Shown here in pieces: positions 15,001 to 51,504 of a stretch of DNA of 64,000 nucleotides. The translations under genes and the position numbers were made by a program. This DNA is from Cenarchaeum sp. (GTDB lineage Archaea; Thermoproteota; Nitrososphaeria; Nitrososphaerales; Nitrosopumilaceae): assembly GCA_963693095.2 (NCBI GenBank), contig OY843768.1, positions 64,001 to 128,000 on the forward strand, read 5' to 3'. The notes beneath the pieces were generated by a model. The model worked only from the letters and a program-made list of their open reading frames with translations, had not been told where the DNA came from and ran no database searches. Each line of letters opens with the position of its first letter. Position 1 is the first letter of the stretch.

Positions 15001-18000
15001 CCACGATCGACGTCACGTTCAGCGAGGGCATCGCCTCGGACTCGATCGCGCCGGCGGCCTTTGAGCTGCACGGCCCGAGGCCCTCGGGCCAGCCCGACGG
15101 CGTCAACGGCGCCGAGATCGGCATCACGGGCGCCGCGCTCCGCACGACGGACAACGCGCGCTCGGAGGTCGTCAGGCTCACGCTGGCCGCCGGCGCGGGG
15201 CTAATGCACGACGGCGTGTACACGGTCACGGCGCTCGAGGACGACGCGGACGACGACGGCGTGCGCTCCGTGACGGGCGAGGCCCTGGACGACGACGAGA
15301 CGGCCGAGTTCACCCGCTCGGAGGACGACCTGTCGCTCGTCTCGGCGGCGCGCGTCGACGACACCACGATCGACGTCACGTTCAGCGAGGGCATCGCCTC
15401 GGACTCGATCGCGCCGGCGGCCTTTGAGCTGCACGGCCCGAGGCCCTCGGGCCAGCCCGACGGCGTCAACGGCGCCGAGATCGGCATCACGGGCGCCGCG
15501 CTCCGCACGACGGACAACGCGCGCTCGGAGGTCGTCAGGCTCACGCTGGCCGCCGGCGCGGGGCTAATGCACGACGGCGTGTACACGGTCACGGCGCTCG
15601 AGGACGACGCGGACGACGACGGCGTGCGCTCCGTGACGGGCGAGGCCCTGGACGACGACGAGACGGCCGAGTTCACCCGCTCGGAGGACGACCTGACGCT
15701 CGTCTCGGCGGCGCGCGTCGACGACACCACGATCGACGTCACGTTCAGCGAGGGCATCGCCTCGGACTCGATCGCGCCGGCGGCCTTTGAGCTGCACGGC
15801 CCGAGGCCCTCGGGCCAGCCCGACGGCGTCAACGGCGCCGAGATCGGCATCACGGGCGCCGCGCTCCGCACGACGGACAACGCGCGCTCGGAGGTCGTCA
15901 GGCTCACGCTGGCCGCCGGCGCGGGGCTAATGCACGACGGCGTGTACACGGTCACGGCGCTCGAGGACGACGCGGACGACGACGGCGTGCGCTCCGTGAC
16001 GGGCGAGGCCCTGGACGACGACGAGACGGCCGAGTTCACCCGCTCGGAGGACGACCTGTCGCTCGTCTCGGCGGCGCGCGTCGACGACACCACGATCGAC
16101 GTCACGTTCAGCGAGGGCATCGCCTCGGACTCGATCGCGCCGGCGGCCTTTGAGCTGCACGGCCCGAGGCCCTCGGGCCAGCCCGACGGCGTCAACGGCG
16201 CCGAGATCGGCATCACGGGCGCCGCGCTCCGCACGACGGACAACGCGCGCTCGGAGGTCGTCAGGCTCACGCTGGCCGCCGGCGCGGGGCTCATGCACGA
16301 CGGCGTGTACACGGTCACGGCGCTCGAGGACGACGCGGACGACGACGGCGTGCGCTCCGTGACGGGCATGGCCCTGGACGACGACGAGACGGCCGAGTTC
16401 ACCCGCTCGGAGGACGACCTGTCGCTCGTCTCGGCGCGCTATATCAGTGACACGTCCGTCGGCCTCACGTTCAACGAGGGACTCCTAGAGTCCTCGGTCG
16501 TCAAGGACGCCTTTACGCTGCACGGCCCGCTGCCGACTACGACACCGGTGCTCATCGACACGGCCACGCTCGACACGGCCAGCGCGGACAACCCGCACCG
16601 CCGGACAGTCACGCTTGCGCTGGTCGACCCTGGCATGACGATCGACGGCACATACAGGGCCACGGCGCTCGTAAACGACCTCACCGACGCCGCCGACTTT
16701 GGCGTGCTCGACTTAACAGGCGTGCCGCTTCTCGAGCGCGGCACGGCAGACCTGGAGCGCGCCCTGGGAGCGCCGACGCTCGAGTCGGCGACGTACGTGG
16801 ATGACAACACGATCACCCTGACGTTCAGCGAGGCAATAGACTCGGGCACGATCGATCCAGAAGACTTTGAGCTGCACGGCCCAAGACCGTCAGGTGCCGA
16901 TGAAGGCGTCAACGGCGCGACTGTTGCCATCATGGGCGCCGATCTTGACGGTGACTCGACGTCCAACCCGCAATCCACAATCATCAGGCTCACGCTTGCC
17001 GGCATGGGGATGGTGTACGACGGCATATACACGGTCACGGCCCTGGCAGACGACCCTGATGACGATACTGACCACGGCGTGCACGCCGTGTCAGGCGAGG
17101 CCCTGGCCGAGGACGACACGGCCGAGGTGAGCCGTGGCGCTGACAACCCACCAACGCTAGTCTCGGCAGTATACATTGATGACAACACGATCCGCCTCAC
17201 GTTCAGCGAGGGAATAGACTCGGGCACGCTCGACCGCGAGGACTTTACGCTGCACGGCCCAAGACCGTCAAGTGCCGCCGAGGGCGTCAACGGCGCACCC
17301 GTTGAGATCATGACTGCCCTGCTCTATGGCGATCTGGCGTCCAACCCGCGCTCAGAGATCGTCATGCTCACGCTGGCAGGCATGGGAATGATGTACGACG
17401 GCACCTACACGGTCACGGCCCTGGCCGATGACCCCGGCGACGCAGCAGACCACGGCGTGCACGCCACGACAGGAGAGGCCCTGACCGAGGACGGCACGGC
17501 CGAGGTTAACAGGGGTGATGGCCCGCCGACACTAGAGTCAGCAACGTACGTCAGCGACGTGGAGATCACGCTCACGTTCAGCGAGGGCCTCCTAGAGTCC
17601 TCAGTCATGACGGACGCCTTTACGCTGCACGGTCCGCTGCCGGCGACGACGGCGGTGACCATCGACACGGCCACGCTCGACGCGGCCAGTGCGGAAAACC
17701 CGCACCGACGGACAGTCATGCTTGCGCTGGTCAGCCCCGGCATGACGATCGACGGCATATACAGGGTCACGGCGCTCGTGAACGACGTGACCGACGCGGA
17801 TATCCACGGCGTGCTCGACACAACAGGCGTGCCGCTCCTAGAGCGCGCCACGGCAGACCTGGAGCGCGCCCTGGGCGCACCCACCCTCGTCTCGGCGACA
17901 TATGTCGATGACCACAATATCCGCCTCACGTTCAGCGAGGGCATCGACTCGGCCACGCTCGGGCCGGAGGACTTTACGGTGACAGGTCCGGAGCCATCAA

Positions 18001-38928: not shown

Positions 38929-40001
38929 TGCGCGCCACCCTCGCTGCCCTCCTTTATGCGCTCCCCCGCGTCACGCTCTAGGCCTGCGGCGACTCGCAGC
39001 GAGTCGACAAGGCCGTCGGCATAGCCGATGCTGAGTATGGCAAGCTCGTCCCTGTCGCACCTCAGGAACTCCTCGGCGTCAGCAACATAGTCCTGTGCGC
39101 AGTCTAGCACGCGCGCGACGCCCTCGCCGCCCCCGCGCAGGCGCGCCTCGCCTATGGCCTCGCCGACCATGGGGACATACTTTGCTATCATGCGGTGTGA
39201 CTCTTTTCTTGACGAGTCGGCGTTTGCGCGCGGCTCTCCGATGCAGCGTGTCAGGACGCGCAGCGCGTCGGCCTCTGTAAAGTGGAGCGAGCCGGGCACG
39301 ATGATGCTGTGCGGCGCCTCGCCAAACTCCTCGCCAAGGAGGCTCCCGACGTCCCCGCCCACCATCGCACAGTCATCACGGCCAACCCTTGAGGCTATGA
39401 CCGCAAACGTCTTGCGCGTGAGCGCAAGCTGGCGCCTCTCCTCCTCTATTGCGAGGAGTGACTCTAGCGCGCTGCGCGGGTCCAGGAACATGCCGGCGTC
39501 CTCGTCGTACTCGAGGAGGAGGACGGTGTGGCACCCGCGATCGAGGTTCTCCTGGATTATCGCGTATGGAGTGCTCGCCTCAGCACGCGTGACTGTCGTC
39601 GTTCGCCCGACCTTGTACTGGTGCAGGCCGCACTCGCCGACCATGCTAGTCAGCGCAGACGCCGCATGGACACTGCGCGTCGTCGTGCCGGCTGCCGCTG
39701 CGCGCGCACGCAGCTCAATGTGCGTCGTTGCGACATACGGATCCCCGTAGCAGACTAGGGCGACATCGCCGCTAGCGGCCGCACGCAGTATCTCGCCGCC
39801 GTCCTCAACGACCCACCTCGGCACGGTCCTAAATGTGGCGCCGCCGCCCTCTGCTATGCGCCTGAGCTCCCCGACCTCTGCGTCTGAGACGGGGCTCGTA
39901 AAGCGCTCCATGTAGACTGCGCCTGATGAGGCGATCGCCGCGCGCGCACCTTCGCCCATGGCTCGCGCGCCGCCGACTCCGATGCCGACAAAGCTCAGCA
40001 C
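38925..40001 (-). CDS. dph5: Diphthine synthase with C-terminal DUF357-like domain
   Basis: 'LSFVGIG', 'ERFTSP', 'GDPYVATTH.ELR', 'CGLHQYKVG', 'PHSIIVPG.LHFTE'; tail 'Y..DA..F.....ELAILSIGYADGLVD'. GTG start at 40001. Confidence 0.9.
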   Translation of the reverse strand: MLSFVGIGVGGARAMGEGARAAIASSGAVYMERFTSPVSDAEVGELRRIAEGGGATFRTVPRWVVEDGGEILRAAASGDVALVCYGDPYVATTHIELRARAAAAGTTTRSVHAASALTSMVGECGLHQYKVGRTTTVTRAEASTPYAIIQENLDRGCHTVLLLEYDEDAGMFLDPRSALESLLAIEEERRQLALTRKTFAVIASRVGRDDCAMVGGDVGSLLGEEFGEAPHSIIVPGSLHFTEADALRVLTRCIGEPRANADSSRKESHRMIAKYVPMVGEAIGEARLRGGGEGVARVLDCAQDYVADAEEFLRCDRDELAILSIGYADGLVDSLRVAAGLERDAGERIKEGSEGGAH

Positions 40002-41161
40002 TGGGCCTGTCCCCTGTCGTGAAGGCGCTTTAGGTGGCGCAGCGTGGACTTTAGTATCTCTATGGACTTTAGGTACTCGGCGATCGAGACGTGCTCGTTG
40101 GACATGTGGGCCAGGTGCGGGTCTCCGGGCCCCCACGTCACGACGGGTATGGCCAGCGTGTTGCCAACGACGTTCATGTCGCCTGTTCCGGTCTTTAGAA
40201 CGGGCATGGGGCTCGGCGAGCCGGACTCGACGGTCCCGATCTTTAGCGCGCGAACGAGAACCGAGTCGGCCTTTGCCTCAAAGGGCTCTGTCTCATCAAG
40301 TATGGAATAGAACGCCTCGACTCCCCGTTCGGCTGCAGTCTCCTTTACGCAAGAGGCGATGTCCTGCTCGACGTTCTTGCATGACATGGCCGGCGGGACG
40401 CGCACGTCCATCGTCGTCTCGCACTCTTGTGGCATCATGTTGTGGCTCGAGCCGCCCCTGATCTCGGTGACAGTCGCCGTGAGCGCCTTGATCCGCCTCT
40501 CCTCGGCGCTTCCGGCCTCGAGCTTGCCCTTTAGCGCAGAGATGAACATGGCGGACTCCTCGATGGCGTTCTTTGAGAGCCATGGCGCGCCGGCGTGGCC
40601 GCTGTTGCCAACGTCGACCTTGAGGTTAATGGCGAGGCGGCCCTTGTAGCCGACAGTTATCTTGCCGATCCCGCTAGGCTCGCCAAACATCGCATAGTCG
40701 AGCCTTATGGGCTGCCCCGCGCGGTCGCGCACGCCGTTCTTTGCTAGGCTCTTGGCGCCGGCTGCGTTTCCCTCCTCGTCTACTGCGCCCACAAAGACTA
40801 TCGTGCCGCCGTTCTCGGCTGCCGCTGCTGCCCCAAAGAGCATTGCCATGAGCGGGGCCTTTGCGTCAGACGCGCCGCGCCCGTACAGCCTGTCGCCCTC
40901 GCGCCTCACGCGTATCTTGCCGGGAACGGTGTCCATGTGGCCGCAGAGCATGGTCACGGGCCGGCCAGTCCCCTTTATCGCCACGACGTTGCCGACCTCG
41001 TCGTCTATGCGTATGTCGCCAAATCCCAGGTCATCGCACTTGTCGGCCAAAAACTCGGCCATGGGCCTCTCTGATAGCGAGACCGTATAGAGGCGAAGGG
41101 CCTTCTCGAGCATCTTTACGGCGTACCTGTCCGTCACGGGCACTTCCACATCGGAGCTCAT
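39995..41161 (-). CDS. lysK: [LysW]-lysine/[LysW]-ornithine hydrolase (M20 peptidase)
   Basis: 'LCGHMDTVPG', 'GRGASDAK', 'VDEEG', 'GEPSG', 'KTGTGDMN', 'GPGDPHLAH'. Lies in the lys operon. Confidence 0.9.
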   Translation of the reverse strand: MSSDVEVPVTDRYAVKMLEKALRLYTVSLSERPMAEFLADKCDDLGFGDIRIDDEVGNVVAIKGTGRPVTMLCGHMDTVPGKIRVRREGDRLYGRGASDAKAPLMAMLFGAAAAAENGGTIVFVGAVDEEGNAAGAKSLAKNGVRDRAGQPIRLDYAMFGEPSGIGKITVGYKGRLAINLKVDVGNSGHAGAPWLSKNAIEESAMFISALKGKLEAGSAEERRIKALTATVTEIRGGSSHNMMPQECETTMDVRVPPAMSCKNVEQDIASCVKETAAERGVEAFYSILDETEPFEAKADSVLVRALKIGTVESGSPSPMPVLKTGTGDMNVVGNTLAIPVVTWGPGDPHLAHMSNEHVSIAEYLKSIEILKSTLRHLKRLHDRGQAQC

Positions 41162-42003
41162 TCCCGTGACGCCTCCAGGACGTGCGCGATAATGAGGGCT
41201 GGTATGTCGACGCCGCAGACCCTGACGGTGTTCTTGAACTCTGTCGTGTTGTTGATCTCGTGGACGAGGAGGCCGCGCTCGTCATCCTCCATGATGTCGA
41301 CTCCGACGATCTCGCCGTGAACCGCATCGCGCGCCTTTATGCAAATCTCCTCCATCTCGCCGGTGACCTTGCACTCCTCGGCATGGCCCCCGAGGGCCAT
41401 GTTCGTCTTCCAGTCACTCGATGACCTGTATATCGCCGCGACGACTGCGTCACCTACGACTATGGCGCGAATGTCGCGCGGGGGCCTCTTTACAAACTCC
41501 TCGACATAGTGGATATGGTACAGTGGATGCATCGCCTCGCGCATCTCGAGTATGCCCTCGGCCGCATCCGCGTCACTGAGGCGCGAGACCATGCGGCCCC
41601 AGCTCCCGACTGTGGGCTTTATGACGCACGGATAGCCGATAGAGTCGGCAGCCTCGAGGGCCGCCTCCCTCGAGAACGAGACTGCGGCGCGCGGGGTGCG
41701 CACGCCGGACTTTTTGAGGAGCATGTGCGTGTAGAGCTTGTTGCCTGCGAGGATGCCTGTCTGCAGGCAGTTGATGACGCGCGCGCCCATTCCCTCAAGG
41801 GCCGCTGTCGAGTGGACATTCCTGTAATAGCTCACGCAGCGCTGCAGTATGGTGCCGTATCCGACCGCCTCGCCGTCAGTCTGCAGCGCGATCTTGCGGC
41901 AGTCAAGAACCTGGATCTCTGCGCCGGCCCTCTTTGCGGCCTCTGCGAGGGCCTTCTCCTCCCACCGAACAGTGTCGTAGAGGATTGTCGCAGCAGGGGT
42001 CAC
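41158..42003 (-). CDS. lysX: Alpha-aminoadipate--LysW ligase (RimK-like ATP-grasp)
   Basis: 'RWEEKAL', 'KPTVGSWGR', 'RDIR', 'WKTNMALG', 'EINNTTEFKN' (LysX-type FKN). Operonic with homocitrate synthase and lysK. GTG start overlaps the lysW stop. Confidence 0.88.
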   Translation of the reverse strand: MTPAATILYDTVRWEEKALAEAAKRAGAEIQVLDCRKIALQTDGEAVGYGTILQRCVSYYRNVHSTAALEGMGARVINCLQTGILAGNKLYTHMLLKKSGVRTPRAAVSFSREAALEAADSIGYPCVIKPTVGSWGRMVSRLSDADAAEGILEMREAMHPLYHIHYVEEFVKRPPRDIRAIVVGDAVVAAIYRSSSDWKTNMALGGHAEECKVTGEMEEICIKARDAVHGEIVGVDIMEDDERGLLVHEINNTTEFKNTVRVCGVDIPALIIAHVLEASRE

Positions 42004-42170
42004 TGCCCCCAATCCTCGCCCACGCTCTGCGCGGGCTTTAGCGTGAGGGAGTCGCCGGTCCCCTCGAGCTCAAAGCTCGAGCCGCACTCGGGGCATGTCA
42101 CGATCTCGCCGGCCATCGCATTGTCCGGAAGCCCTATCGTCGCGTCGCACTCGGAGCACTTGGCGGCCAT
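42000..42170 (-). CDS. lysW: LysW amino-group carrier protein, lysine branch (C-terminus EDWGQ); absent from the ORF track
   Basis: Manual translation: MAAKCSECDATIGLPDNAMAGEIVTCPECGSSFELEGTGDSLTLKPAQSVGEDWGQ* (56 aa, two CxxC motifs). Last codons TGG GGG CAG TGA. Confidence 0.93.
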   Translation of the reverse strand: MAAKCSECDATIGLPDNAMAGEIVTCPECGSSFELEGTGDSLTLKPAQSVGEDWGQ

Positions 42171-42171
42171 A

Positions 42172-43356
42172 TCAGCGTCCCCGGCGCGCGCGGCGGCTAT
42201 TTAACCTTCTTTCAATCCTGTCCTCCAGCGGCATCTCCAGGACGTCGCCCATGCGAAGCGACTTTAGGCCGTCGGCCAGGCTCCTTGCCTGCTCGTCATC
42301 TGCGCGCAGGCCGAGTATCGCTGCCAGGTGGGCAGCACCGGCGCGGCCGGCGAGCTCGCCGAAGACTATGGTCCGGCGGTTGCCCACTGCGTTTGGCGGT
42401 ATGGGCTCGTATGCTGCCGGATTGTTCAGGACTGCGGCCAGGTGCGTGCCGGCCTTGTGCTTGAATGCCGACGAGCCGACTAGCGGCGCGGACTCGTGCG
42501 TCTTTATCGGCGTGTACGCGTCTATTAGGCGCGAGAGGTCGCCTAGCATGTCGAGGTGGAACGAGTTCTTTAGCCCATAGAGGTAGTGTATCGCCGTTGC
42601 GACCTCGGCGAGTGCGGGTATGCCCGTTCGCTCGCCGATGCCGTTTATCGTCGTGTGTATCTGGTCAACTCCGGCCTCGCATGCGGCAAACGCGTTGGCT
42701 AGCGCAAAGCCGACGTCATTGTGGACATGGACGTCAAGGGGAACGTCACCTATTGCGTCACGGACGAGTGCGACATACCTGCGCATTCCGTGGGGAAGCA
42801 TAGCCCCTGCAGTGTCCGGCAGGCTTATCCTGTCGACTCCGGCGTCCCTGACTGCGGCGCACACGCGCACAAGGAACTGCGGATCGGCCCTGCTCCCGTC
42901 CTCGGCGGTAAAGCGAATCTTTAGGCCGTGGGCCTTTGCGTACTCTACTGCCTTTACTGCGCGCGAGATGGCCTCGTCGTGGTCTATGCGCAGCTTGTCC
43001 CTCATGTGAACCTCGGATATCCCGAGATACACCGCACACCATTTCGCGTCACAGTCGATTATCTTGTCAATGTCGGCCACTAGAGCGCGACCGTGCGCGA
43101 CAATGTCTGCGGCAAGGCCCTGCCTTATTATCGTGCGCGTCGCCTCCTCGTGGTCAGCGGATATGACCGGCGATATCTCTATCTGGTCGACGCCAAAGTG
43201 GTCAAGCTCCCACGCTATCTGTATGCGCTGCTTTACGCTAAAGGAGATGCCGGGGTGCTGCTCCCCCTCGCGAAGCGTGCTGTCGAGTATGCGTATCTTT
43301 GACGGGCCTGTCACCATTGCGTTGTACTCGTCGGCCCTGCGGTTTGCCTTTTCCAT
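42172..43356 (-). CDS. Homocitrate synthase (LeuA/DRE-TIM family)
   Basis: 'ILDSTLREGEQ', 'LPDTAG', 'HVHNDVG.A.AN', 'GIGERTG', 'AFKHKAGTH'. No LeuA regulatory domain; heads the lysW-lysX-lysK unit. Confidence 0.82.
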   Translation of the reverse strand: MEKANRRADEYNAMVTGPSKIRILDSTLREGEQHPGISFSVKQRIQIAWELDHFGVDQIEISPVISADHEEATRTIIRQGLAADIVAHGRALVADIDKIIDCDAKWCAVYLGISEVHMRDKLRIDHDEAISRAVKAVEYAKAHGLKIRFTAEDGSRADPQFLVRVCAAVRDAGVDRISLPDTAGAMLPHGMRRYVALVRDAIGDVPLDVHVHNDVGFALANAFAACEAGVDQIHTTINGIGERTGIPALAEVATAIHYLYGLKNSFHLDMLGDLSRLIDAYTPIKTHESAPLVGSSAFKHKAGTHLAAVLNNPAAYEPIPPNAVGNRRTIVFGELAGRAGAAHLAAILGLRADDEQARSLADGLKSLRMGDVLEMPLEDRIERRLNSRRARRGR

Positions 43357-43471: not shown

Positions 43472-43888
43472 CTACTCGTATGTCCGCAGTATTATCGTCG
43501 TGTTCGTGTTCGTCACGCCCTGTATCTTGCGCAACTGGTCAATGCTCTCATTGACGTTCAGTATGCCCTGCGCGCTAAGCGAGGCGATGATGTCATAGCT
43601 TCCGGTTATCTCGTGAACCGTGACGACCCCGTCGAGCTTCATTATGCGCTGCGAGACCTTGGCGACGTCGGTTCCGGACTCGACGGTCACAAACGCGACG
43701 GCCTTTGTCATGCCCTCATCGCCCATCTCGACGGTAAATCGCTTTATCGCCCCAGAGTCGAGGAGCGTCTTTATTCTCCGCCGGACCGCTGACTCTGAAA
43801 GGCCAACCTCCTTGCCGATCTCGCTGTGCCCCATGCGCGAGTCCTTTTTGAGCAACGCAATTATCTTGCGGTCCTTTTCGCTATGCAA
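43472..43888 (-). CDS. lysM: Lrp/AsnC family regulator (LysM-type)
   Basis: 'DRKIIALLKKDSR...EIGKEVGLSESAVRRRIK.L', RAM domain 'HEITGSYDI'. Embedded in the lys/arg cluster; TTG start inferred. Confidence 0.85.
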   Translation of the reverse strand: MHSEKDRKIIALLKKDSRMGHSEIGKEVGLSESAVRRRIKTLLDSGAIKRFTVEMGDEGMTKAVAFVTVESGTDVAKVSQRIMKLDGVVTVHEITGSYDIIASLSAQGILNVNESIDQLRKIQGVTNTNTTIILRTYE

Positions 43889-45059
43889 CTCCTCTCCTTG
43901 CCTCCTCTGCGCCGAGGAGGTCATCTAGGACGCCTAAAACCCTTGCGACGTCAGCGGAGCCGACGACGAGCGGGGGCAAGAGGCGCAGTATGTTGCGCCC
44001 CGAGTAGAGGAGGAGGACGCCCTGCTCTATGCCGCCCATGATGATGTCGCGCACGTCAACCTTTAGCTCCACTCCCACCATGAGGCCGCGCCCCCTGACC
44101 TCCCTGATGATCGCGTGCTTTTCTGCCAGCGCACGCAGTCCAGAGATGAGCTCATCGCCCACGCTTGCCGCATTGTCGACTAGGCCGTCAGTCACCAGTG
44201 CGTCAAGTGTCGCCGTGCCGGCCGCGCACGAGAGCGCATTGCCGCCAAACGTGGAAGAGTGCTCGCCCTTTGACATGCTCGCGATGATCTCCGGCCTTGC
44301 GAGCGTGACGCCCATGGGAACGCCGCCGGCTATTCCCTTTGCGAGGCACAGTATGTCCGGTGCCGTGGAGTCATGGTCACACGCCCACATCTTTCCGGTC
44401 CTTCCGAGGCCCGCCTGTATCTCGTCGAACGCGAGGACGACGCCGCGCTCGTCGCAGACGCGCCGCACGTCGCGCAAAAACCCGTCAGGCGCAACGTGTA
44501 TGCCGCTCTCGCCCTGTATGGGCTCGAGTATCACCATGCCAGTCTCCTCGGTGATGGCCTCGCGCAGCGCGTCAATGTCGCCAAATGGCGAGAACGAGAC
44601 GCCGTCGAGGAGCGGCCCGAAGGCCTTGCGGTACTTTGGGTTGAACGTCAGCGAGAGCGCGCCCATGGACTTGCCGTGGTACGACCCGCGCATTGCCACC
44701 ATGTGGGACTTTTTGGTGAACTTGCGCGCGAACTTTATTGCCGCCTCGACGGCCTCTGCGCCGCTGTTGTTCAGGTGCGCGCACGTGAGGCCTTTAGGGG
44801 CCAGCGAGACTATCTTTTCGAGAAACCTCGCGCGAACATTGCTGTAGAGGGATCCGTGAACCGTGACGATCCTGTCGACCTGTTCCCTTATTGCCGCCGT
44901 GACGCGCTCGTTGCGGTGGCCGACTAGCGCTACGCCGTACCCGCCCATAAAGTCAAGGTACTCCTTTCCGGCCGTGTCCCACACGCGCACTCCCTGCCCG
45001 CGCTCGACGGTCACGGGGAACCTCTGGTACAGGCCGCCCATTATGGCATCCTCGCTCAT
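43881..45059 (-). CDS. lysJ: [LysW]-aminoadipate/glutamate semialdehyde transaminase (LysJ/ArgD)
   Basis: 'NSGAEAVEAAIKFAR', 'EPIQGESG', 'DEIQAGLGRTG', 'LAKGIAGG', 'STFGGN'. Confidence 0.92.
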   Translation of the reverse strand: MSEDAIMGGLYQRFPVTVERGQGVRVWDTAGKEYLDFMGGYGVALVGHRNERVTAAIREQVDRIVTVHGSLYSNVRARFLEKIVSLAPKGLTCAHLNNSGAEAVEAAIKFARKFTKKSHMVAMRGSYHGKSMGALSLTFNPKYRKAFGPLLDGVSFSPFGDIDALREAITEETGMVILEPIQGESGIHVAPDGFLRDVRRVCDERGVVLAFDEIQAGLGRTGKMWACDHDSTAPDILCLAKGIAGGVPMGVTLARPEIIASMSKGEHSSTFGGNALSCAAGTATLDALVTDGLVDNAASVGDELISGLRALAEKHAIIREVRGRGLMVGVELKVDVRDIIMGGIEQGVLLLYSGRNILRLLPPLVVGSADVARVLGVLDDLLGAEEARRGVA

Positions 45060-45859
45060 TGCCGGATCACCGTGCAGCGCTCATGCGCCATGGCCGCCGA
45101 TATTGGCCCCTCCCTCTTTCCGCTCGCGATGATCGCCTCTCCGACGCCGGCGTCTAGTGCCTCAAGTGCGGCGATGACCTTCTTTTCCATCCCCGCCCCT
45201 ATCCGCGGGCGCATCTCGCGCGCCTCAGCGGCGCTGATCCCCTCGACTAGCCTGTCATCCATGATTATCCCGTCGACATTGGTGACGAATATGACGCGAC
45301 TGGCGCGCATGGCGCCGGCAACACTGGCCGCCGCCCTGTCGCCGTCGACGTTGAGAAACTCGTTCTCCTCGCTGAGCGCAACGGGGGCGATGACTGGCGT
45401 AAAGCCTGACCCGATGAGCGAGGATATGAGGGCAGAGTTTACGTGCGATATCTTGCCCGTGTACCCGCCGTCGATCGCCTGCTTTCTGCCGCGCTCGTTG
45501 ACTATGAGGAGCCTCTTTTTCCGGTCGGCGCGAATGAGCCCGCCATCTATGCCGCACACGCCCACGGCGTTGACTCCGCCGGCCTGCAGCGAGCGCACTA
45601 TGGACTTGTTGACGCGTCCGGCCATGACCATCGTGAATATCTCGGCCGTCTCTTTGTCAGTATAGCGGCTCCTCACGCCGCTCGGTGACGTGATAAAGCG
45701 CGGCTCGTGGCCGAGGCGGCCCGACACGTCAGTCACGTCGCGCCCGCCGCCGTGGACGACTATGACGCCACCCTCGGACTCGGCTGCCTGCCGTATGTCC
45801 GCAATTGCCGTCTCGTGCAGGTCGCCGACCACGCTCCCGCCTATCTTTATCGTGATCAT
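45056..45859 (-). CDS. lysZ: [LysW]-aminoadipate/glutamate kinase (LysZ/ArgB)
   Basis: 'IKIGGS', 'VHGGG', 'SPSGVRSRYTD', 'GGYTGKI', 'NVDGDRAA', 'GMEKK'. Confidence 0.93.
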   Translation of the reverse strand: MITIKIGGSVVGDLHETAIADIRQAAESEGGVIVVHGGGRDVTDVSGRLGHEPRFITSPSGVRSRYTDKETAEIFTMVMAGRVNKSIVRSLQAGGVNAVGVCGIDGGLIRADRKKRLLIVNERGRKQAIDGGYTGKISHVNSALISSLIGSGFTPVIAPVALSEENEFLNVDGDRAAASVAGAMRASRVIFVTNVDGIIMDDRLVEGISAAEAREMRPRIGAGMEKKVIAALEALDAGVGEAIIASGKREGPISAAMAHERCTVIRQ

Positions 45860-45865
45860 CGTGGC

Positions 45866-46921
45866 TCACACCGGTGTGAGCGGCGAGTATAGCAGCCCCT
45901 CGGTCTCCTCGCCGCCTAGCATGACGTTCATGTTCTGTATCGCAGAACCCGCCGCGCCCTTCATCAGGTTGTCTGATGCGGAGAGCGCAATGAGCCTGTT
46001 GTTTGCGGGGTCGAGGTCAAAGCCAATGTCGCAAAAGTTCGATCCCACGACGAACTTTGGGTCAGGAAACTTGTAGAGTCCCTTTTTGTCGCGAATGAGC
46101 CTGATGAACCTCTCATCCCCATAGCGCTCGCGGTATATCCTCCAGATGTCCCTCTCATCGACGTCGCGCTCGAGGAACGTGTGGCTAGTGCAGAGTATGC
46201 CGCGCACGACGTCGACTGCGTGCGGGCTCATCGAGACGGGTATCTTTGAGCCGGCTGCCTCGGAGAGCTCTTGCTCTATCTCGCCGGTGTGCCGGTGCAT
46301 CGCCGGCTTGTACGGGCGTATGACGCCGGCCCTCATCGCGTGGTTTGTGCCGGCCTTTCCGCCCGCACCGGCGCCCGAGGAGCCGATCTTTGAGTCGACG
46401 ATTATGTGCTTTTTGTCGATGAGGCCCTCCTCCACTAGCGGGCGAAGCGCCAGTATCGACGTCACTGCCATGCAGCCCGGACACGAGACGAGCCTTGCGG
46501 TGCGTATGGCCTCGCGGTGGATCTCGGGCACGCCGTAGACTGAGCCCTTGAGGCCACCTGGGTTTGTGTGTGTCCAGCCATACCACCTGTCATAGTCGGC
46601 GGCGTTGTGGAGCCGATAGTCGGCGCTCAGGTCTATGACGCGCACGCCGCGATCGAGGAGCTCCTGGACGATGTCGACTGCGGTCCCGTGGGGGACGGCC
46701 GTAAAGACAATGTCGCACGCCTCGGCCATGCGGTCATAGTCGAGCTCGCTGAACTTTATGTCCCCGATTAGGCCCTTTAGGCTAGGCTGGACGCGGTGGA
46801 CATAGTCGCCGGCGTGCTGCCTCGAGGTGACCATGGCTATCTCGGCGCGCGGATGGCCCACTAGGAGACGCAGGACCTCCCCGCCAACATAGCCTGATGC
46901 ACCAACGACGCCGGCCTTCAT
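45866..46921 (-). CDS. lysY: [LysW]-aminoadipate/glutamyl phosphate reductase (LysY/ArgC)
   Basis: 'GASGYVGGE.LRLL..HP', 'IDLSADYRL', 'PGCMA', 'HRHTGEIEQEL', 'DNLMKGAAG.AIQNMN'. Confidence 0.93.
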   Translation of the reverse strand: MKAGVVGASGYVGGEVLRLLVGHPRAEIAMVTSRQHAGDYVHRVQPSLKGLIGDIKFSELDYDRMAEACDIVFTAVPHGTAVDIVQELLDRGVRVIDLSADYRLHNAADYDRWYGWTHTNPGGLKGSVYGVPEIHREAIRTARLVSCPGCMAVTSILALRPLVEEGLIDKKHIIVDSKIGSSGAGAGGKAGTNHAMRAGVIRPYKPAMHRHTGEIEQELSEAAGSKIPVSMSPHAVDVVRGILCTSHTFLERDVDERDIWRIYRERYGDERFIRLIRDKKGLYKFPDPKFVVGSNFCDIGFDLDPANNRLIALSASDNLMKGAAGSAIQNMNVMLGGEETEGLLYSPLTPV

Positions 46922-46967
46922 GCCGGTGGGCTTGCGCGCGCATAATTTATACTCAATGCGCGCAGCG

Positions 46968-47822
46968 TCATCCCCTCGCCGTGCGCGCGGCAAACTCGAT
47001 AATGGCCCCCGGCACGTCGGCCTGCCCAGTGCTTGCCATGCCCCTGAACTCGACTGTGTTGTTGACCTCGTGGACGACGATCCCGCGCTCGGCGTCCTCC
47101 ATCATGTCCACGCCGAGGACACCGCCGCCGACGGCCTCTGACGCTCGCGCGGCGAGCTCCCCGATCTCCGGCGTGATCGCGCATGGCTCGGGCCTGGCTC
47201 CGGCGGCAACGTTTGTCCTAAACCCTCCTGACTCGCGGTACATTGCGGCGACGGCCTCGCCGCCAACGGTTATGACGCGAATGTCGCGCGGCGGGCGCCT
47301 TATGCGCTCCTGGAGATAGTATAGGCGGTCATGCGGCGAGTCAGTCACCGCACGAGCCTCCATTATCGCATCAAGCGTGTCGCGATCATTTACGCTCATC
47401 ACTCCACGGCCCCAGCTTCCGACGAGCGGCTTTATGACGAGCGGATAGCCCTCGCGCCCAAAGCAGTCCACTGCACCCTCGGCCGAGAGCGCAAAGTGCG
47501 TTCGCGGCGTCGGCACGCGCGCCTTTTGGAGGAGGAGCGTCATGAACATCTTGTTGCCGCAGCGCGAGGCCACATCAAGGCTGTTTATCGACGTGACTCC
47601 GGCAAACTCGGCTATGGCAGTAAAGCACATTCCCCTGTGATAGCTCACGCATCTCTCTAGGACGACATCGCCGAGGCCCAGTGAGGCAGCACTACTCTGC
47701 GTGCTCGCGCTGACTGACTTTGCGTCGACCATGTGGGCCTCATGCCCCCTCTCTGAGGCGCTCTTTGCCAGCATCTTTTCCTCCACGCGGAGTCGGTCGT
47801 AGGCTATGCTTATTCTAACCAT
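46968..47822 (-). CDS. argX: Glutamate--LysW ligase (ArgX; LysX paralog)
   Basis: ATP-grasp 'KPLVGSWGRG', 'FRTNVA', 'EVNNTVEFRG' (ArgX-type F-K/R-G). Operonic with argG. Confidence 0.8.
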   Translation of the reverse strand: MVRISIAYDRLRVEEKMLAKSASERGHEAHMVDAKSVSASTQSSAASLGLGDVVLERCVSYHRGMCFTAIAEFAGVTSINSLDVASRCGNKMFMTLLLQKARVPTPRTHFALSAEGAVDCFGREGYPLVIKPLVGSWGRGVMSVNDRDTLDAIMEARAVTDSPHDRLYYLQERIRRPPRDIRVITVGGEAVAAMYRESGGFRTNVAAGARPEPCAITPEIGELAARASEAVGGGVLGVDMMEDAERGIVVHEVNNTVEFRGMASTGQADVPGAIIEFAARTARG

Positions 47823-47986
47823 CACTCGCCCCAGTCTTCGCCGACCTTTTCAGCCCTCTTTAGCTCCACCTCGGAGCCGCTTCTAGAGACCTCATAGTCG
47901 GCCCCGCAGTCAGGGCATGTGACAAGCTCGCCGGACATCGCGTCATCTGGAACGCTTAGGCCTGCGTCGCACTCGGGACACTTCAC
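47822..47986 (-). CDS. lysW: LysW/ArgW amino-group carrier protein (canonical EDWGE)
   Basis: GTG start; MKCPECDAGLSVPDDAMSGELVTCPDCGADYEVSRSGSEVELKRAEKVGEDWGE (54 aa). Confidence 0.94.
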   Translation of the reverse strand: MKCPECDAGLSVPDDAMSGELVTCPDCGADYEVSRSGSEVELKRAEKVGEDWGE

Positions 47987-49178
47987 GGCGCGCCGCACGC
48001 GATCCTTGTAATTTAACCGCTTCTGTGGACTGGAGGCCCCAGAGCTCCACAAAGCCCGTGGCACGCCTCTGATCAAACGTCGAGCCGCGCCCATACGTGG
48101 CCTCCTCGGCGCTGTATAGCGAGTTTGGCGACGAGCGCCCGACGACCCTGACTGCGCCCCTGTGGAGCCTCAGGCGCACGGTCCCGCTGACGGGCTCCTG
48201 CGAGCGCTCGATATACGACTCGAGGCTTGCGCGCAGGGGATCCTCCCAAAGTCCCGAGTATGCCAGCCACGTCCACTCGGCGTCAACTGTGCCCTTGAAG
48301 CGCGTCTCGTGCTTTGTGTGGACCATCTTTTCGAGGTCGGCGTGGGCCTCGATGACGCATGCTGCCGCCGGCGCCTCATAGACCTCCCTTGACTTTATCC
48401 CGACGGTGCGATCCTCTATGTGGTCGACGATTCCGACTCCTGCCCTGCCGGCCACTGCGTTGAGGCGCTCGATTAGCGCGCGCGCGCGCATTCTCCTCCC
48501 GTCAAGGGAGACGGGCACGCCGCGCTCAAAGCCGATCCTGACATACGTCGGCCTCGCCGGCGGGCTCGTGCTGACCCACTCAAAGGCGTCATCTGGCGGC
48601 TCGGCGGCCGCATCCTCGAGCACGCCGCCCTCTATGGCGCGCCCCCAGAGGTTCTGGTCAATGCTAAACCTTCTTGCGACGTTCTCTATGCGCACGCCGT
48701 GCTTGCGCGCAAAGTCCAGCTCTGTCGGGCGATCAAGGTTCATGTCGCGTATGGGCGCGACTATGGGGAGCGATGATGCGGCCCTCATCGTTACATCAAA
48801 GCGCACCTGGTCGTTTCCCTTTCCGGAACAGCCGTGCGCAAGTGATGTTGCGCGCTCTTTTCTTGCGACCTCGATGACCTTTTTTGCGATTAGTGGCCTG
48901 GCCAGCGCAGTGGCGAGGTTGTACTTTGACTGGTATAGCGCGTTTGCCTTTATGGCGACGAGCACATAGTCGCGCACAAACTCATCACGCGCATCTAGCG
49001 TGTAGTGCTTTTTGACGCCGAGCGCCCTGGCGCGCCGCCCAATCTCGGCACTGCTGCCGCCCTGGCCCACATCGACTGTGACAGTCACGACGTCCATGTC
49101 AAGATCCTCCTGGAGGTACTTTACGACGACTGACGTGTCTAGCCCGCCCGAGAACGCGAGAACTGCCTTGCCTGACAA
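47943..49178 (-). CDS. argG: Argininosuccinate synthase
   Basis: 'VLAFSGGLDTS', 'TALARPLIA', 'HGCSGKGNDQVRF', 'SIDQNLWGR.IEGG', 'GIKSREVYEAP'. Confidence 0.96.
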   Translation of the reverse strand: MSGKAVLAFSGGLDTSVVVKYLQEDLDMDVVTVTVDVGQGGSSAEIGRRARALGVKKHYTLDARDEFVRDYVLVAIKANALYQSKYNLATALARPLIAKKVIEVARKERATSLAHGCSGKGNDQVRFDVTMRAASSLPIVAPIRDMNLDRPTELDFARKHGVRIENVARRFSIDQNLWGRAIEGGVLEDAAAEPPDDAFEWVSTSPPARPTYVRIGFERGVPVSLDGRRMRARALIERLNAVAGRAGVGIVDHIEDRTVGIKSREVYEAPAAACVIEAHADLEKMVHTKHETRFKGTVDAEWTWLAYSGLWEDPLRASLESYIERSQEPVSGTVRLRLHRGAVRVVGRSSPNSLYSAEEATYGRGSTFDQRRATGFVELWGLQSTEAVKLQGSRAARREVSRVRRRPKRSR

Positions 49179-49515
49179 CGCGCGCGCGTGCGTATGCCTT
49201 GTGATTTATCTATTGCGCGTGGATCGGCATAATGTCAGCACCCATGCCCGTTCATGCCGGTGCAGGCGCTGCTGCGGCGAGTGGGCCGGGCCCGATGCCA
49301 CCATTTGGCCAAGTGGGCAAGAGGCGTGCCGGCCTAATGCCTGGGTTGGCCGCAAGCCGTTAAATATGCGCCTTGGGCACGCCTGCCATGTCGGCAGCAG
49401 TCGTGCTGGCGCCAGCCGTGCCAGCACTTTTCATGCAGTCGTTGGCCATTGCGAGCCAGCTCGGCATCATTTCAGCGTGGGAGAACACCATGCGCACGAT
49501 GGGGGATCCACAACA

Positions 49516-51504
49516 ATGATTCGCGTGCTTGCCGCCATCTCGATCGTTGCGGCCTGTGCGACCATTGCGGGTTACGGCGTGTTGTCCTGGGATGCAGGTG
49601 GGACTGTTGAATATGCCGACGTCGTGCCCGGCGCAGAGGCTGTGGACGACGGGGAGGTGTGGGGAACCGTCGAGCATTACGCGCAGCGCGCCGCCGAGCT
49701 GTACGCAAAGCGCACGCACGGGGAGCATCCGGAGGAATTTCCCGCAATTCGCACTGACGCCCTTGCGGACGGCATTGTGGAGCTGTACTGGGAGGTGCAG
49801 CGCGACGACGATCTGCGCCTCCGGCTGCCAGAGAGGCTCAGGGTGTCCATGGATGCCGCGAATCCCGACGAGCTGGCATCAGGGCTCATCGACCTGCACA
49901 ATGCGGTGCAGAGCGACGACGAGCTGCACCGCATGCTGCCCGAGGAGTTTCGCGTGCCGCTAAAGGCGGTTCGCTATTACTTTGCCACCGAGGCTCCGTT
50001 CTGCCTTGGGGATCCTTTTTGCGCTGATGTGGATTACATGGCAGGTTATCACGGTGCCGACGACGAGAGCTACCTTAGATCGTCCACGGAATCCATGGAG
50101 CCCTGGAACGAAGACAATGGCGTGCGCAAGATGTGCGAGGCTGCCCGCGATGATCTCACAGGGCAGCTTCCGTGGCTGGAGGGGGACGCAGAGTGGCTCT
50201 TTTTTATGGACATATGCAGGGACTGGCACAGCAGGCACGTCTCCTATTCCATCGTGGCATACCTGACCGAAAACGTCTCTGAGCGCTGCAGGAACCTGAT
50301 AGACTCCGGGTGGGTGGTGGGCAACAGTGGCGACTTTTATCGTCCAGGGGCGACCCCTCACGAGACGCGGCAAGAGTTCTACCCCGACGAGGTTCTGGAT
50401 CCTGAACACGATTACGGAAACACCTTGTTTAAATCAAGATGCCTGCCGTCAGGATTCCCGCCCTCCGAACTTCTCCTCCGCCACCCCCCAGAAGTAGAGC
50501 CGGTAGGTTGGGCTTCTGACCCTGCCGACGTCGTGCCCGGCGCAGAGTCCGAGGGGGACGACGGGGAAGTGTGGGGAACCGTTGAGCATTACGCGCAGCG
50601 CGCCGCCGAGCTGTACGCAAAGCGCACACACGGGGAGCATCCAGAGAAATTTCCCGCAATTAGCCCTGACGCCCTTGCGGACGGCATTGTGGAGCTGTAC
50701 TGGGAGGTGCAGCGCGACGACGATCTGCGCCTCCGGCTGCCAGAGAGGCTCAGGGTGTCCATGGATGCCGCGAATCCCGACGAGCTGGCATCCGGACTCC
50801 TCGACCTGCACAATGCGGTGCAGAGCGACGACGAGCTGCACCGCATGCTGCCCGAGGAGTTTCGCGTGCCGCTAAAGGCGGTGGTCTATCACTTTGATGC
50901 CCCGACCGTGTCTTGCTCTTTCTGGTATGTCTGTCAGGATGAGTTTGTGAGCGTCTATTCTGGTTCTGATGACGAGAGCTATCTTCGATCCGTTCAGCAC
51001 ACCACGAAGCTTTGGCAAGACAACAAGCAAAAAGTGTGCAGGGCCGCTAACGACAAGCTTGTGGGACAGCTTCCATGGCTGGAGGGCAACGCGGAATGGC
51101 TCGTGTTTATGGGCGGATGCGAGCACTGGCACAGCAAGCACATCTCCGAGTCCATCGTGGCATACCTGACCGAGAACGTCTCTGAGCGCTGCAGGGACCT
51201 GATAGACTCCGGGTGGGTGGTGGGCAACAGTGGCTCCTTTTATCGTCCAGTGATGCCCCACTACGAGCGGTGGCAAGAGTTTCTGACAAACATATTCACG
51301 CTGGGCTCCACGACGGTCACGTGCACGGAGACTGACGAGTCGGGCAAAACGGGCCGCGCCGCGTTCAGGGTGACTGTGAGCTCTACGGACGTCGTGCCGC
51401 CGGTGATCACGCTGTCGGCTGACATGTCGATTCCGGCGACGTCAAGCGTCGGCGCAACGGAGACGTTCACGGTGACTGCCCGCGGCGTAGACGGGGCAGT
51501 CTAG
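49516..51504 (+). CDS. Secreted or membrane-anchored hypothetical protein with two ~300-aa duplicated units and a fused HYR-domain tail
   Basis: Hydrophobic N-terminus MIRVLAAISIVAACATIAGYGVLSW (ATG 49516). Duplicated 'ADVVPGAE...GEVWGTVEHYAQRAAELY...VPLKAV' unit. Tail 'FTLGSTTVTCTETDESG...FRVTV..D..PPVIT' is HYR-like. Confidence 0.7.
   Translation: MIRVLAAISIVAACATIAGYGVLSWDAGGTVEYADVVPGAEAVDDGEVWGTVEHYAQRAAELYAKRTHGEHPEEFPAIRTDALADGIVELYWEVQRDDDLRLRLPERLRVSMDAANPDELASGLIDLHNAVQSDDELHRMLPEEFRVPLKAVRYYFATEAPFCLGDPFCADVDYMAGYHGADDESYLRSSTESMEPWNEDNGVRKMCEAARDDLTGQLPWLEGDAEWLFFMDICRDWHSRHVSYSIVAYLTENVSERCRNLIDSGWVVGNSGDFYRPGATPHETRQEFYPDEVLDPEHDYGNTLFKSRCLPSGFPPSELLLRHPPEVEPVGWASDPADVVPGAESEGDDGEVWGTVEHYAQRAAELYAKRTHGEHPEKFPAISPDALADGIVELYWEVQRDDDLRLRLPERLRVSMDAANPDELASGLLDLHNAVQSDDELHRMLPEEFRVPLKAVVYHFDAPTVSCSFWYVCQDEFVSVYSGSDDESYLRSVQHTTKLWQDNKQKVCRAANDKLVGQLPWLEGNAEWLVFMGGCEHWHSKHISESIVAYLTENVSERCRDLIDSGWVVGNSGSFYRPVMPHYERWQEFLTNIFTLGSTTVTCTETDESGKTGRAAFRVTVSSTDVVPPVITLSADMSIPATSSVGATETFTVTARGVDGAV
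49614..51250 (+). repeat. Intragenic duplication with near-identical blocks (49614-49970 vs 50523-50882; 50248-50347 vs 51151-51250) flanking a divergent segment
   Basis: Direct comparison: the second block pair is 96/100 identical and the first differs at only a few positions, while the intervening ~270 bp is strongly divergent with indels. Confidence 0.92.

What the first reader, a model, noticed from the sequence alone, without database searches (positions are those of the whole stretch)
42000..42170. Lysine-branch LysW carrier ends in Gln (EDWGQ), lacking the Glu that carries the substrate
Seen: a hidden 56-aa LysW ending TGG GGG CAG TGA (EDWGQ), operonic with homocitrate synthase, lysX and lysK. 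A second LysW beside argG/argX has the canonical EDWGE. Established: in Thermus and Sulfolobus, LysX/ArgX ligate the amino group of aminoadipate or glutamate to the gamma-carboxyl of LysW's terminal Glu, so Gln cannot be activated that way. Inference: either (i) a maturation step deamidates Gln to Glu (LysK, a gamma-amide hydrolase, is a candidate), (ii) ligation is to the alpha-carboxyl, or (iii) LysW-Q is a decoy or regulator and the EDWGE carrier serves both pathways. Any of these would be a variant carrier chemistry that could insulate Lys from Arg synthesis while LysZ/Y/J/K are shared. The Q form may be general in Nitrosopumilaceae.
Basis: partly seen in the sequence, partly recalled or inferred. 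Interest (0 to 1): 0.72.

Follow-up and report, generated by a model that had tools for sequence, protein, structure and literature searches.

The report
Lysine carrier protein ending in glutamine
The small carrier protein that holds the growing lysine molecule in this ammonia-oxidising archaeon is encoded with a terminal glutamine where the textbook protein needs a glutamate, and this form is widespread in archaea, which points to an undescribed activation step.

Summary
Window 42000..42170 (-) encodes a 56-aa LysW ending EDWGQ, between homocitrate synthase and lysX-lysK. A second LysW ending EDWGE lies between argG and argX. The CAG codon is not an error: contigs of 4 public runs keep it, and the EDWGQ-stop motif occurs in 305 of 401 genomes of the class.

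It also occurs in Caldarchaeum-like Thermoproteota and in Asgard genomes. Some genomes encode only Gln-ended LysW: both copies, or a single copy serving two ligases. One genome has the reverse arrangement (Lys-branch Glu, Arg-branch Gln). These cases rule out a decoy there and argue against Lys/Arg insulation as a general role.

Across the family the last residue was Glu or Gln in all 122 complete tails examined. Gln and Glu switched about 9 times on a tree of 192 carrier-ligase pairs, with no matching change in the partner ligase.

Best reading, confidence 0.58: a Pup-like pro-carrier whose Gln is converted to Glu before or at first loading, most simply by LysK, after which the canonical gamma-linked cycle runs. 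This step is inferred, not shown. I found no published description.

The parts
42000..42170 (-). lysW, Lys-branch amino-group carrier protein, 56 aa, ending EDWGQ
   Evidence: PF21344, E 4.9e-13; NF041070, 83.6 bits against cut-off 75
42003..42005 (-). terminal CAG (Gln) codon in the position of the canonical GAR (Glu) codon
   Evidence: No other letter at these positions in contigs of 4 runs from 3 studies
41158..42012 (-). lysX, ATP-grasp LysW--aminoadipate ligase. Its start overlaps the lysW stop (TTG at 42012 or GTG at 42003)
   Evidence: TIGR02144, 324 bits against cut-off 275.6
39995..41161 (-). lysK, M20 [LysW]-lysine/ornithine hydrolase. It is the only M20 peptidase in the genome and the candidate deamidase
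   Evidence: PRK04443 259 bits, below its cut-off of 363; subfamily TIGR01902 232 bits against 163
42172..43356 (-). homocitrate-synthase-like gene (HMGL-like plus HCS_D2 domains)
   Evidence: TIGR02146 365 bits, below its cut-off of 413.55
43472..43924 (-). Lrp-family regulator resembling LysM
   Evidence: NF040947 166 bits, below its cut-off of 180
43881..45059 (-). lysJ/argD-type class-III aminotransferase
45056..45859 (-). lysZ, [LysW]-aminoadipate/[LysW]-glutamate kinase
   Evidence: NF010662, 291 bits against cut-off 194
45866..46993 (-). lysY/argC-type semialdehyde dehydrogenase
46968..47825 (-). argX, second LysX-family ATP-grasp ligase
   Evidence: It falls in the ArgX clade of the ligase tree
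47822..47986 (-). second lysW (Arg branch), ending EDWGE. The start is uncertain: GTG at 47986 or at 47998
   Evidence: NF041070, 91.3 bits
47943..49178 (-). argG-like gene (argininosuccinate synthase); named from its motif and from matches to neighbouring genes, not run through Pfam or NCBIfam here
   Evidence: used as the upstream context marker

Best explanation
The gene encodes a functional LysW carrier made as a pro-form. The gamma-carboxamide of the C-terminal Gln has to become the gamma-carboxyl of Glu before, or at, the first loading with alpha-aminoadipate. After that, LysX, LysZ, LysY, LysJ and LysK run the canonical gamma-linked cycle. LysK regenerates LysW-Glu at every turn, so the Gln matters only once per molecule.

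The simplest catalyst is LysK. It already hydrolyses LysW-gamma-amide bonds (LysW-gamma-Lys and LysW-gamma-Orn), and LysW-Gln is the smallest such amide.

This parallels Pup. Pup is encoded with a terminal Gln in some species and Glu in others. PupGln is deamidated by Dop, the enzyme that also removes Pup from its targets.

Shown here: the sequence, its conservation, Gln-only genomes, Gln/Glu switching, and the restriction of the last residue to Glu or Gln.

Inferred: the deamidation itself and which enzyme performs it.
For: 1. Real and inherited. EDWGQ-stop occurs in 305 of 401 class genomes, including f1 219/223 and f3 78/78, with the reversed-pattern control at 0 in every genome. 105 of the 120 best homologues end EDWGQ.

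2. The Gln form must work as a carrier.
- G184 and G235 (single-contig genomes, 99% complete) have exactly two LysW, both Gln-ended. One sits in argG-lysW-argX, the other in HCS-lysW-lysX-lysK.
- Genus g27: 15/15 genomes have the Gln motif and 0/15 the Glu motif. Five of them were checked and each has one DWG[QE]-stop only. In the three with loci, argG abuts argX with no lysW between them. Two LysX-family ligases were found in each of the three searched.
- G411, G569, G418, G564 and G552 each have one LysW above cut-off, and it is Gln-ended. In four of them it lies in a cluster with lysZ, lysY, lysX and lysK (lysJ as well in G411, G569 and G418); in the G552 locus only lysX was recognised beside it.

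3. Only Glu or Gln. Among the 150 best family representatives (50% identity clusters), 122 have a complete ..WGx end: 105 Glu, 17 Gln, none other. This fits chemistry at the side-chain carbonyl.

4. Switching without partner adaptation.
- About 9 parsimony changes of Gln/Glu on a tree of 192 unique carrier-ligase pairs, in both the LysX and ArgX clades.
- In 5 independent Gln/Glu pairs, no ligase column tracks the state. The one apparent exception is the same nucleotide read in the overlapping frame. No column has a residue present in more than 90% of Gln partners and fewer than 20% of Glu partners.
That fits near-equivalence of the two forms.

5. No spare enzyme. The own genome has one M20 peptidase, which is LysK, and two LysX-type ligases.

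6. Canonical chemistry, from passages of PMC10433800: AAA or Glu is linked to the gamma-carboxyl of the terminal Glu of the EDWGE motif, and the Natrinema argW(E54A) mutant is an arginine auxotroph.

7. Precedent, from passages of PMC5358908: PupGln must be deamidated by Dop. Dop is also the depupylase. The ligase PafA cannot deamidate.
Against: - No direct evidence of deamidation. No mass, proteomic or enzymatic data were available here.
- LysK-type M20 enzymes normally bind the alpha-carboxylate of the leaving amino acid. Ammonia offers no such handle, so LysK activity on a primary amide is unproven.
- No gene whose presence tracks the Gln state was found, but none was searched for systematically.
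- If Gln were merely neutral, its retention in 219/223 (f1) and 78/78 (f3) must be put down to inheritance. Parsimony undercounts changes at fast sites, so some selection for Gln, and hence a function of its own, cannot be excluded.
- RimK, a LysX homologue, ligates at an alpha-carboxyl (recalled; the NCBIfam names agree). A different regiochemistry is therefore not chemically absurd.
- The 192-pair set is biased, because many of its loci were picked with the Gln pattern.
Confidence: 0.58

Rival explanations
1. Direct use of the amide. LysX/ArgX themselves convert LysW-Gln without a separate deamidase, by a glutamine-synthetase- or Dop-like gamma-glutamyl transfer. Phosphate attacks the amide with ADP bound, ammonia leaves, and aminoadipate or glutamate attacks the acyl phosphate. 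From the second cycle on the carrier is ordinary LysW-Glu.
For: - It explains Gln-only genomes without a new gene.
- It fits the Glu/Gln-only terminal residue.
- It fits the lack of an extra LysX paralogue.
- Dop, a homologue of the Pup ligase, works on PupGln (passages of PMC5358908).
- The glutamine-synthetase transferase reaction is a recalled precedent.
Against: - In the Pup system the ligase PafA cannot deamidate PupGln.
- ATP-grasp enzymes are not known to me to start from amides.
- No ligase residue co-varies with the Gln state. That would be surprising if the ligase had gained a new half-reaction, though less so if the ability is ancestral.
Confidence: 0.12
2. Alpha-carboxyl chemistry. 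LysX/ArgX activate the free alpha-carboxyl of the terminal Gln, as RimK does on protein S6. The intermediates are alpha-linked, and LysK cleaves an ordinary peptide bond, so the Gln is kept through every cycle.
For: - The LysX family includes alpha-L-glutamate ligases (the rimK_fam, MptN and CofF names among the hits).
- The Gln would then act in every turnover, which could explain its retention in f1 and f3.
Against: - If the side chain were a bystander, other residues should appear. None does in 122 of 122 complete tails.
- Close relatives switch between Gln and Glu (G131 and G353 against other g3 genomes; 17 Gln against 12 Glu among Caldarchaeum-type homologues).
- One genome has Lys-Glu plus Arg-Gln. 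By my own bond count, the shared LysZ/Y/J/K would have to accept tethers differing by 2-3 bonds within one cell and between sister species.
- No ligase column tracks the state.
Confidence: 0.12
3. Decoy or regulator. In this genome LysW-Gln is not a carrier, and the EDWGE LysW serves both pathways.
For: In the window's genome a Glu-ended LysW does exist, so this cannot be excluded for this organism from sequence alone.
Against: - Orthologous Gln-ended LysW are the only carriers in many genomes.
- The gene keeps its full zinc-ribbon and EDWG tail, and its start/stop overlap with lysX, across hundreds of genomes.
- A single LysW suffices in other archaea, so a conserved dead copy next to lysX is unparsimonious.
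Confidence: 0.03
4. Artefact. The CAG is a sequencing or assembly error, or a strain-specific loss of function.
For: None found.
Against: - Contigs of 4 runs from 3 studies keep CAG.
- The same motif occurs in 305 of 401 class genomes, in 25 genomes of other families of the phylum and in 12 Asgard genomes with a true stop.
Confidence: 0.01

Closest known systems
LysW/ArgW amino-group carrier proteins of Thermus thermophilus, Sulfurisphaera tokodaii and Thermococcus kodakarensis (PDB 3wwl_A, 3vpb_E, 5k2m_E)
   Same: - Same fold family: phmmer E 6.5e-10, 1.3e-8 and 7.4e-5.
- Four-Cys zinc ribbon and acidic EDWG tail.
- Same gene neighbours (lysX, lysZ, lysY, lysJ, lysK).
   Different: All three solved carriers end in Glu (alignments), and the substrate is attached to its gamma-carboxyl (PMC10433800 passages). 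Here the encoded last residue is Gln, which has no carboxyl to phosphorylate.
Pup(Gln)/Dop/PafA of actinobacteria
   Same: - A small protein is used through the gamma-carboxyl of a C-terminal Glu that is phosphorylated by an ATP-dependent ligase.
- It is encoded as Gln in some lineages and Glu in others.
- The Gln form is deamidated by the enzyme that also cleaves the isopeptide (PMC5358908 passages).
   Different: - I expect no homology (Pup is a disordered tag ending GGQ, recalled; not tested here).
- The Pup ligase and deamidase are glutamine-synthetase-like paralogues. Here the ligase is an ATP-grasp enzyme and the amide hydrolase an M20 metallohydrolase.
- No third ligase paralogue that could act as a Dop was found.
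- Deamidation of LysW is not shown.
RimK / ribosomal protein S6 and other alpha-L-glutamate ligases of the LysX family
   Same: Homologous ATP-grasp enzymes acting on a protein or cofactor terminus (family hits).
   Different: They ligate at an alpha-carboxyl. That this happens on LysW-Gln is only the rival reading, and the Glu/Gln-only terminus argues against it.

Membership tests
LysW/ArgW amino-group carrier protein | Small zinc-ribbon globular domain (CxxC ... CxxC) | tested here: met
   PF21344, E 4.9e-13. NF041070, 83.6 bits against cut-off 75. Matches to solved LysW chains.
LysW/ArgW amino-group carrier protein | C-terminal EDWGE motif whose last Glu carries the substrate | tested here: not met
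   EDWG is present but the encoded last residue is Gln. Whether the mature protein ends in Glu cannot be told from DNA.
LysW/ArgW amino-group carrier protein | Gene adjacent to a LysX/ArgX ATP-grasp ligase and to the LysZ/Y/J/K genes | tested here: met
   The same HCS-lysW-lysX order appears in 88 unique Gln-ended loci of 192 pairs.
LysW/ArgW amino-group carrier protein | Covalent gamma-linkage of aminoadipate or glutamate to the terminal residue | not testable with these tools
   Needs mass spectrometry or an enzyme assay.
Pup-like pro-form logic (works like, not membership) | Terminal Gln and Glu alternate among orthologues, with no other residue | tested here: met
   (122 of 122 complete tails end in Glu or Gln).
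Pup-like pro-form logic (works like, not membership) | Dedicated deamidase that is a paralogue of the ligase (Dop-like) | tested here: not met
   Only two LysX-type genes in each of the 5 genomes searched.
Pup-like pro-form logic (works like, not membership) | Deamidation of the terminal Gln demonstrated | not testable with these tools
   No proteomic or biochemical data were reachable.

The most novel reading that the evidence does not exclude
The terminal Gln is not a silent pro-form but a working part of the system. One possibility is that the carrier is charged directly from the amide: ligase-catalysed gamma-glutamyl transfer with release of ammonia, or alpha-carboxyl ligation that keeps the Gln. 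Another is that deamidation is a regulated licensing step that ties the supply of active Lys/Arg carrier to LysK activity or to nitrogen status. This would hold in organisms that live on ammonia and in several other archaeal lineages. Either way it would be a second, undescribed mode of amino-group-carrier chemistry in primary metabolism.
Probability: 0.2. Interest if true: 0.85.

Novelty: new variant of a known kind. Interest (0 to 1): 0.62.

Why it matters
LysW-mediated synthesis is the only recognised route to lysine, and in these genomes to arginine, in ammonia-oxidising archaea, which are among the most abundant microbes in oceans and soils. The textbook mechanism requires a terminal Glu, and an E54A carrier gives auxotrophy in Natrinema (PMC10433800). 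Yet most of these organisms, and Caldarchaeum-like and some Asgard archaea, encode Gln, sometimes on their only carrier.

So either an unrecognised maturation step exists, a metabolic counterpart of Pup deamidation, or the ligation chemistry differs. Both are directly testable with a 6-kDa protein and two or three enzymes.

There are practical consequences too:
- Metabolic models and pathway-gap tools should not treat Gln-ended LysW as defective.
- Heterologous reconstitution of these pathways may fail unless the activating enzyme is included.
- If LysK does the conversion, it gains a second predicted activity.

Tried and rejected
- Ligase co-variation. I aligned 192 unique LysW-adjacent ligases and compared 5 independent Gln/Glu pairs (fixed differences 57/291, 68/302, 12/283, 72/281 and 25/284 columns). 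The only column that follows the state is the LysW codon itself, read in the overlapping lysX frame. So there is no sign that the ligase adapts.
- Extra enzymes. No second M20 peptidase in the own genome. No third LysX-type ligase in the 5 genomes searched. The 1.4-kb gap between lysJ and lysK in the Caldarchaeum-type cluster holds an opposite-strand P-loop-like gene, not an obvious amidase (judged by eye only). I did not scan for other amidase families, so a dedicated deamidase is not excluded.
- Expression. No RNA holder was listed for the stretch.
A homologue search with P0204 returned 2 proteins without names. Their taxa stay unknown, and whether bacteria have Gln-ended LysW is open.
Its few bacterial hits are chance matches that are not LysW-like.
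- I did not run complex prediction or structure prediction. LysW binding to LysX and LysK is expected from the pathway, and a pass would not tell Gln from Glu chemistry.
- Read-through or recoding of the stop was considered and rejected. Gln-ended genes end in TGA, TAA and TAG in different lineages. The few 'run-on' database proteins are TGA read as Trp by a gene caller.
- Strong selection for Gln was considered.
- Literature. 0 papers hold LysW plus EDWGQ. LysW plus 'deamidat' gives one paper, irrelevant on reading the passage. AmCP or amino group carrier protein with C-terminal Gln or glutamine gives nothing relevant in the listing. LysW with Thaumarchaeota or AOA genus names gives only a metabolic model that does not discuss the terminus. 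The founding LysW papers are in subscription journals and were not searchable, and supplements are closed. A remark there could pre-empt the novelty claim.
Full report
WHAT IS THERE

The ORF at 42000..42170 on the minus strand encodes a 56-aa protein that ends ...KPAQSVGEDWGQ. Its last codons are GAG GAT TGG GGG CAG TGA. It is a LysW-type carrier: Pfam PF21344 at E 4.9e-13, NCBIfam NF041070 at 83.6 bits against a cut-off of 75, and matches to the three solved LysW chains, all of which end EDWGE.

The genes on the minus strand run in this order: argG, lysW(EDWGE), argX, lysY, lysZ, lysJ, a LysM-like regulator, a homocitrate-synthase-like gene, lysW(EDWGQ), lysX, lysK. The lysW stop overlaps the lysX start.

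The EDWG[QE] pattern occurs twice in the window, with 0.01 expected by chance. The 2.0-Mb genome has only these two LysW above the family cut-off. It has two LysX-type ligases and one M20 peptidase, which is LysK.

IS THE CAG REAL?

Contigs of four public runs from three studies cover the codon and show no other letter at 42003..42005. Two strain variants that differ at nearby positions both keep it. These are contigs, and the best holder may be the source sample, so the stronger argument is conservation, described next.

HOW WIDE IS THE GLN FORM?

Close homologues. Of the 120 best homologues, 105 end EDWGQ and 11 end EDWGE. The other 4 are run-on or chimeric calls.

The window's class. The motif EDWGQ followed by a stop was found in 305 of 401 genomes. 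By family:
- f1, the window's family: 219/223
- f3: 78/78
- f2: 6/10
- f5: 1/4
- the other 16 families: none

The reversed-pattern control was 0 in every genome. EDWGE-stop was found in 321 of the same 401 genomes, but in only 25/78 of f3. Five unpublished genomes (G231, G132, G326, G282, G364) are part of these tallies only.

The bacterial hits of that scan are chance matches.

Beyond the class.
- In 401 genomes of the phylum, 90 have the motif. Those outside the window's order include f28 at 13/16 and f34 at 9/27.
- Most of those loci hold lysY, lysZ, lysW(...AEDWGQ), lysX and lysK, some with lysJ as well.
- Sources name homologues of the f28 protein 'Candidatus Caldarchaeum' or 'Aigarchaeota'. 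Of 29 such homologues, 17 end in Gln and 12 in Glu.
- In 251 genomes of the Asgard phylum, 13 match and 12 of these have a true stop. Seven of the eight loci returned are LysW-like.

The whole family. A profile search of 1.84 billion representatives gave 1327 hits. Of the best 150, 122 have a complete ..WGx end: 105 Glu, 17 Gln and nothing else.

CONFIGURATIONS THAT CONSTRAIN FUNCTION

(a) Lys-branch Gln plus Arg-branch Glu. This is the window's arrangement and that of most of f1.

(b) Both copies Gln. G184 and G235 are single-contig genomes, 99% complete, with exactly two LysW. One lies in argG-lysW-argX and the other in HCS-lysW-lysX-lysK. By my reading of the tables, 23 of 24 genomes of their genus show two Gln motifs and no Glu motif. 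In f1, G070, G153 and G208 do the same.

(c) A single Gln-ended LysW.
- Genus g27 has the Gln motif in 15/15 genomes and the Glu motif in 0/15.
- In five genomes checked there is one true DWG[QE]-stop.
- In the three with loci, argG is followed directly by argX.
- Two ligases were found in each of the three searched.
- The LysW of this genus is identical to that of a record titled Ca. Nitrosocosmicus agrestis.
- Five non-AOA genomes also have one LysW above cut-off, and it is the Gln one.

(d) Both copies Glu inside f1: G131 and G353.

(e) The reverse of the window: G402 has Lys-branch Glu and Arg-branch Gln.

Outgroup families of the order have two Glu-ended copies.

It follows that the Gln form is a working carrier, not a decoy, and that Gln is not tied to the lysine branch.

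EVOLUTIONARY BEHAVIOUR

I collected 192 unique pairs of LysW and its downstream ligase. This set is biased towards Gln, because 119 loci were found with the Gln pattern. I built a ligase tree, which separates a LysX clade from an ArgX clade.

Parsimony gives about 9 Gln/Glu changes: 5 among 114 LysX-clade pairs and 4 among the other 78. Adjacent synonymous sites show 14 to 38 changes. In the LysX clade the comparison is 5 changes against 25 at the neighbouring four-fold Gly site. One specific transversion out of the changes possible at a four-fold site would be expected at roughly a fifth of that rate. The data therefore fit near-neutral switching with inheritance. Because parsimony undercounts fast sites, weak selection cannot be ruled out.

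In five independent Gln/Glu pairs no ligase position follows the carrier's state. The apparent exception is the very nucleotide of the LysW codon, read in the overlapping lysX frame.

MECHANISM

Established chemistry, from passages of PMC10433800:
- LysX/ArgX link the amino group of aminoadipate or glutamate to the gamma-carboxyl of the terminal Glu of the EDWGE motif.
- An E54A carrier makes Natrinema an arginine auxotroph.

A carboxamide cannot be phosphorylated in that way. Three facts bear on what happens instead:
- Only Glu and Gln are seen at the terminus.
- The two forms interchange between sister species, and between the two carriers of one cell that share LysZ/Y/J/K.
- The ligases do not co-vary with the state.

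The most economical explanation is that both forms converge on the same mature species, LysW-Glu. LysK regenerates LysW-Glu at each turn, so the Gln has to be dealt with only once per molecule.

LysK is the obvious candidate. It is the pathway's hydrolase of LysW-gamma-amides, it is present in every one of these clusters, and it is the only M20 enzyme in this genome.

The Pup system is an exact logical precedent, from passages of PMC5358908. The terminal residue is Gln in some species. It is deamidated by Dop, which is also the depupylase. The ligase PafA cannot do this.

All of this section is inference. Nothing here shows deamidation.

RIVALS

- Ligase-catalysed transfer from the amide is chemically conceivable and would need no extra enzyme. 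The Pup ligase, however, cannot do the analogous step.
- Alpha-carboxyl ligation has a family precedent in RimK. It predicts tolerance of other terminal residues, which is not seen in 122 of 122 tails. It would also require the shared downstream enzymes to accept tethers of very different length within one cell (G402) and between sister species.
- Decoy and artefact are excluded as general explanations by the data above.

COMPARISON AND NOVELTY

This is a member of the LysW family in fold, tail and context. It fails one defining feature as encoded, the terminal Glu.

It works like Pup(Gln) in logic, without being related to it. I did not test Pup homology.

I found no paper that mentions a Gln-ended LysW. 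This covers search listings and the passages read. The founding papers in subscription journals and all supplements were out of reach, so prior notice cannot be excluded.

I rate it a new variant of a known kind. Interest is moderate to high because the organisms are globally important, the textbook mechanism cannot apply to the encoded protein, and the question is settled by a simple mass measurement.

Noticed in passing
window 18..19907 (+), repeats 7324..16436: A giant open frame of 6629 aa. It contains about 25 tandem copies of a 363-bp (121-aa) unit that are 99% identical. This region is also the stretch with 73% G+C and strong AT skew. It is probably a huge repetitive surface protein, and such near-identical repeats are also a likely place for assembly collapse.
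   Followed up: partly
window 49012..51504 (+): An 830-aa ORF next to argG with a long internal duplication: two modules of roughly 300 aa sharing stretches such as ...GEVWGTVEHYAQRAAELYAKRTHGEHPE... Seen only in the ORF listing.
   Followed up: no
L012, L013, L174 (genomes G153, G070, G208): In one genus of the window's family the second LysW (ending SIGEDWGQ or TIGEDWGQ) stands alone, away from argG and argX, and is Gln-ended like the Lys-branch copy.
   Followed up: partly
L204 and L206 (genome G402, reached through L115): A Nitrososphaerales-type genome with the reverse arrangement of the window: HCS-lysW(EDWGE)-lysX and argG-lysW(EDWGQ)-argX.
   Followed up: yes
window 42000..42012 and orthologous loci: The lysW stop and the lysX start overlap (GTGA). 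The Gln/Glu nucleotide is therefore also read in the lysX frame (Thr, Ala, Ser or Pro against Arg at ORF position 3), upstream of or at the lysX start. This creates a spurious 'co-varying' ligase column.
   Followed up: yes
P0150, P0180, P0162, P0202: The profile search also found long proteins (250 to 1052 aa) with 3 to 12 tandem LysW-like zinc-ribbon stretches. They lack the WGx end. Their function is unknown.
   Followed up: no
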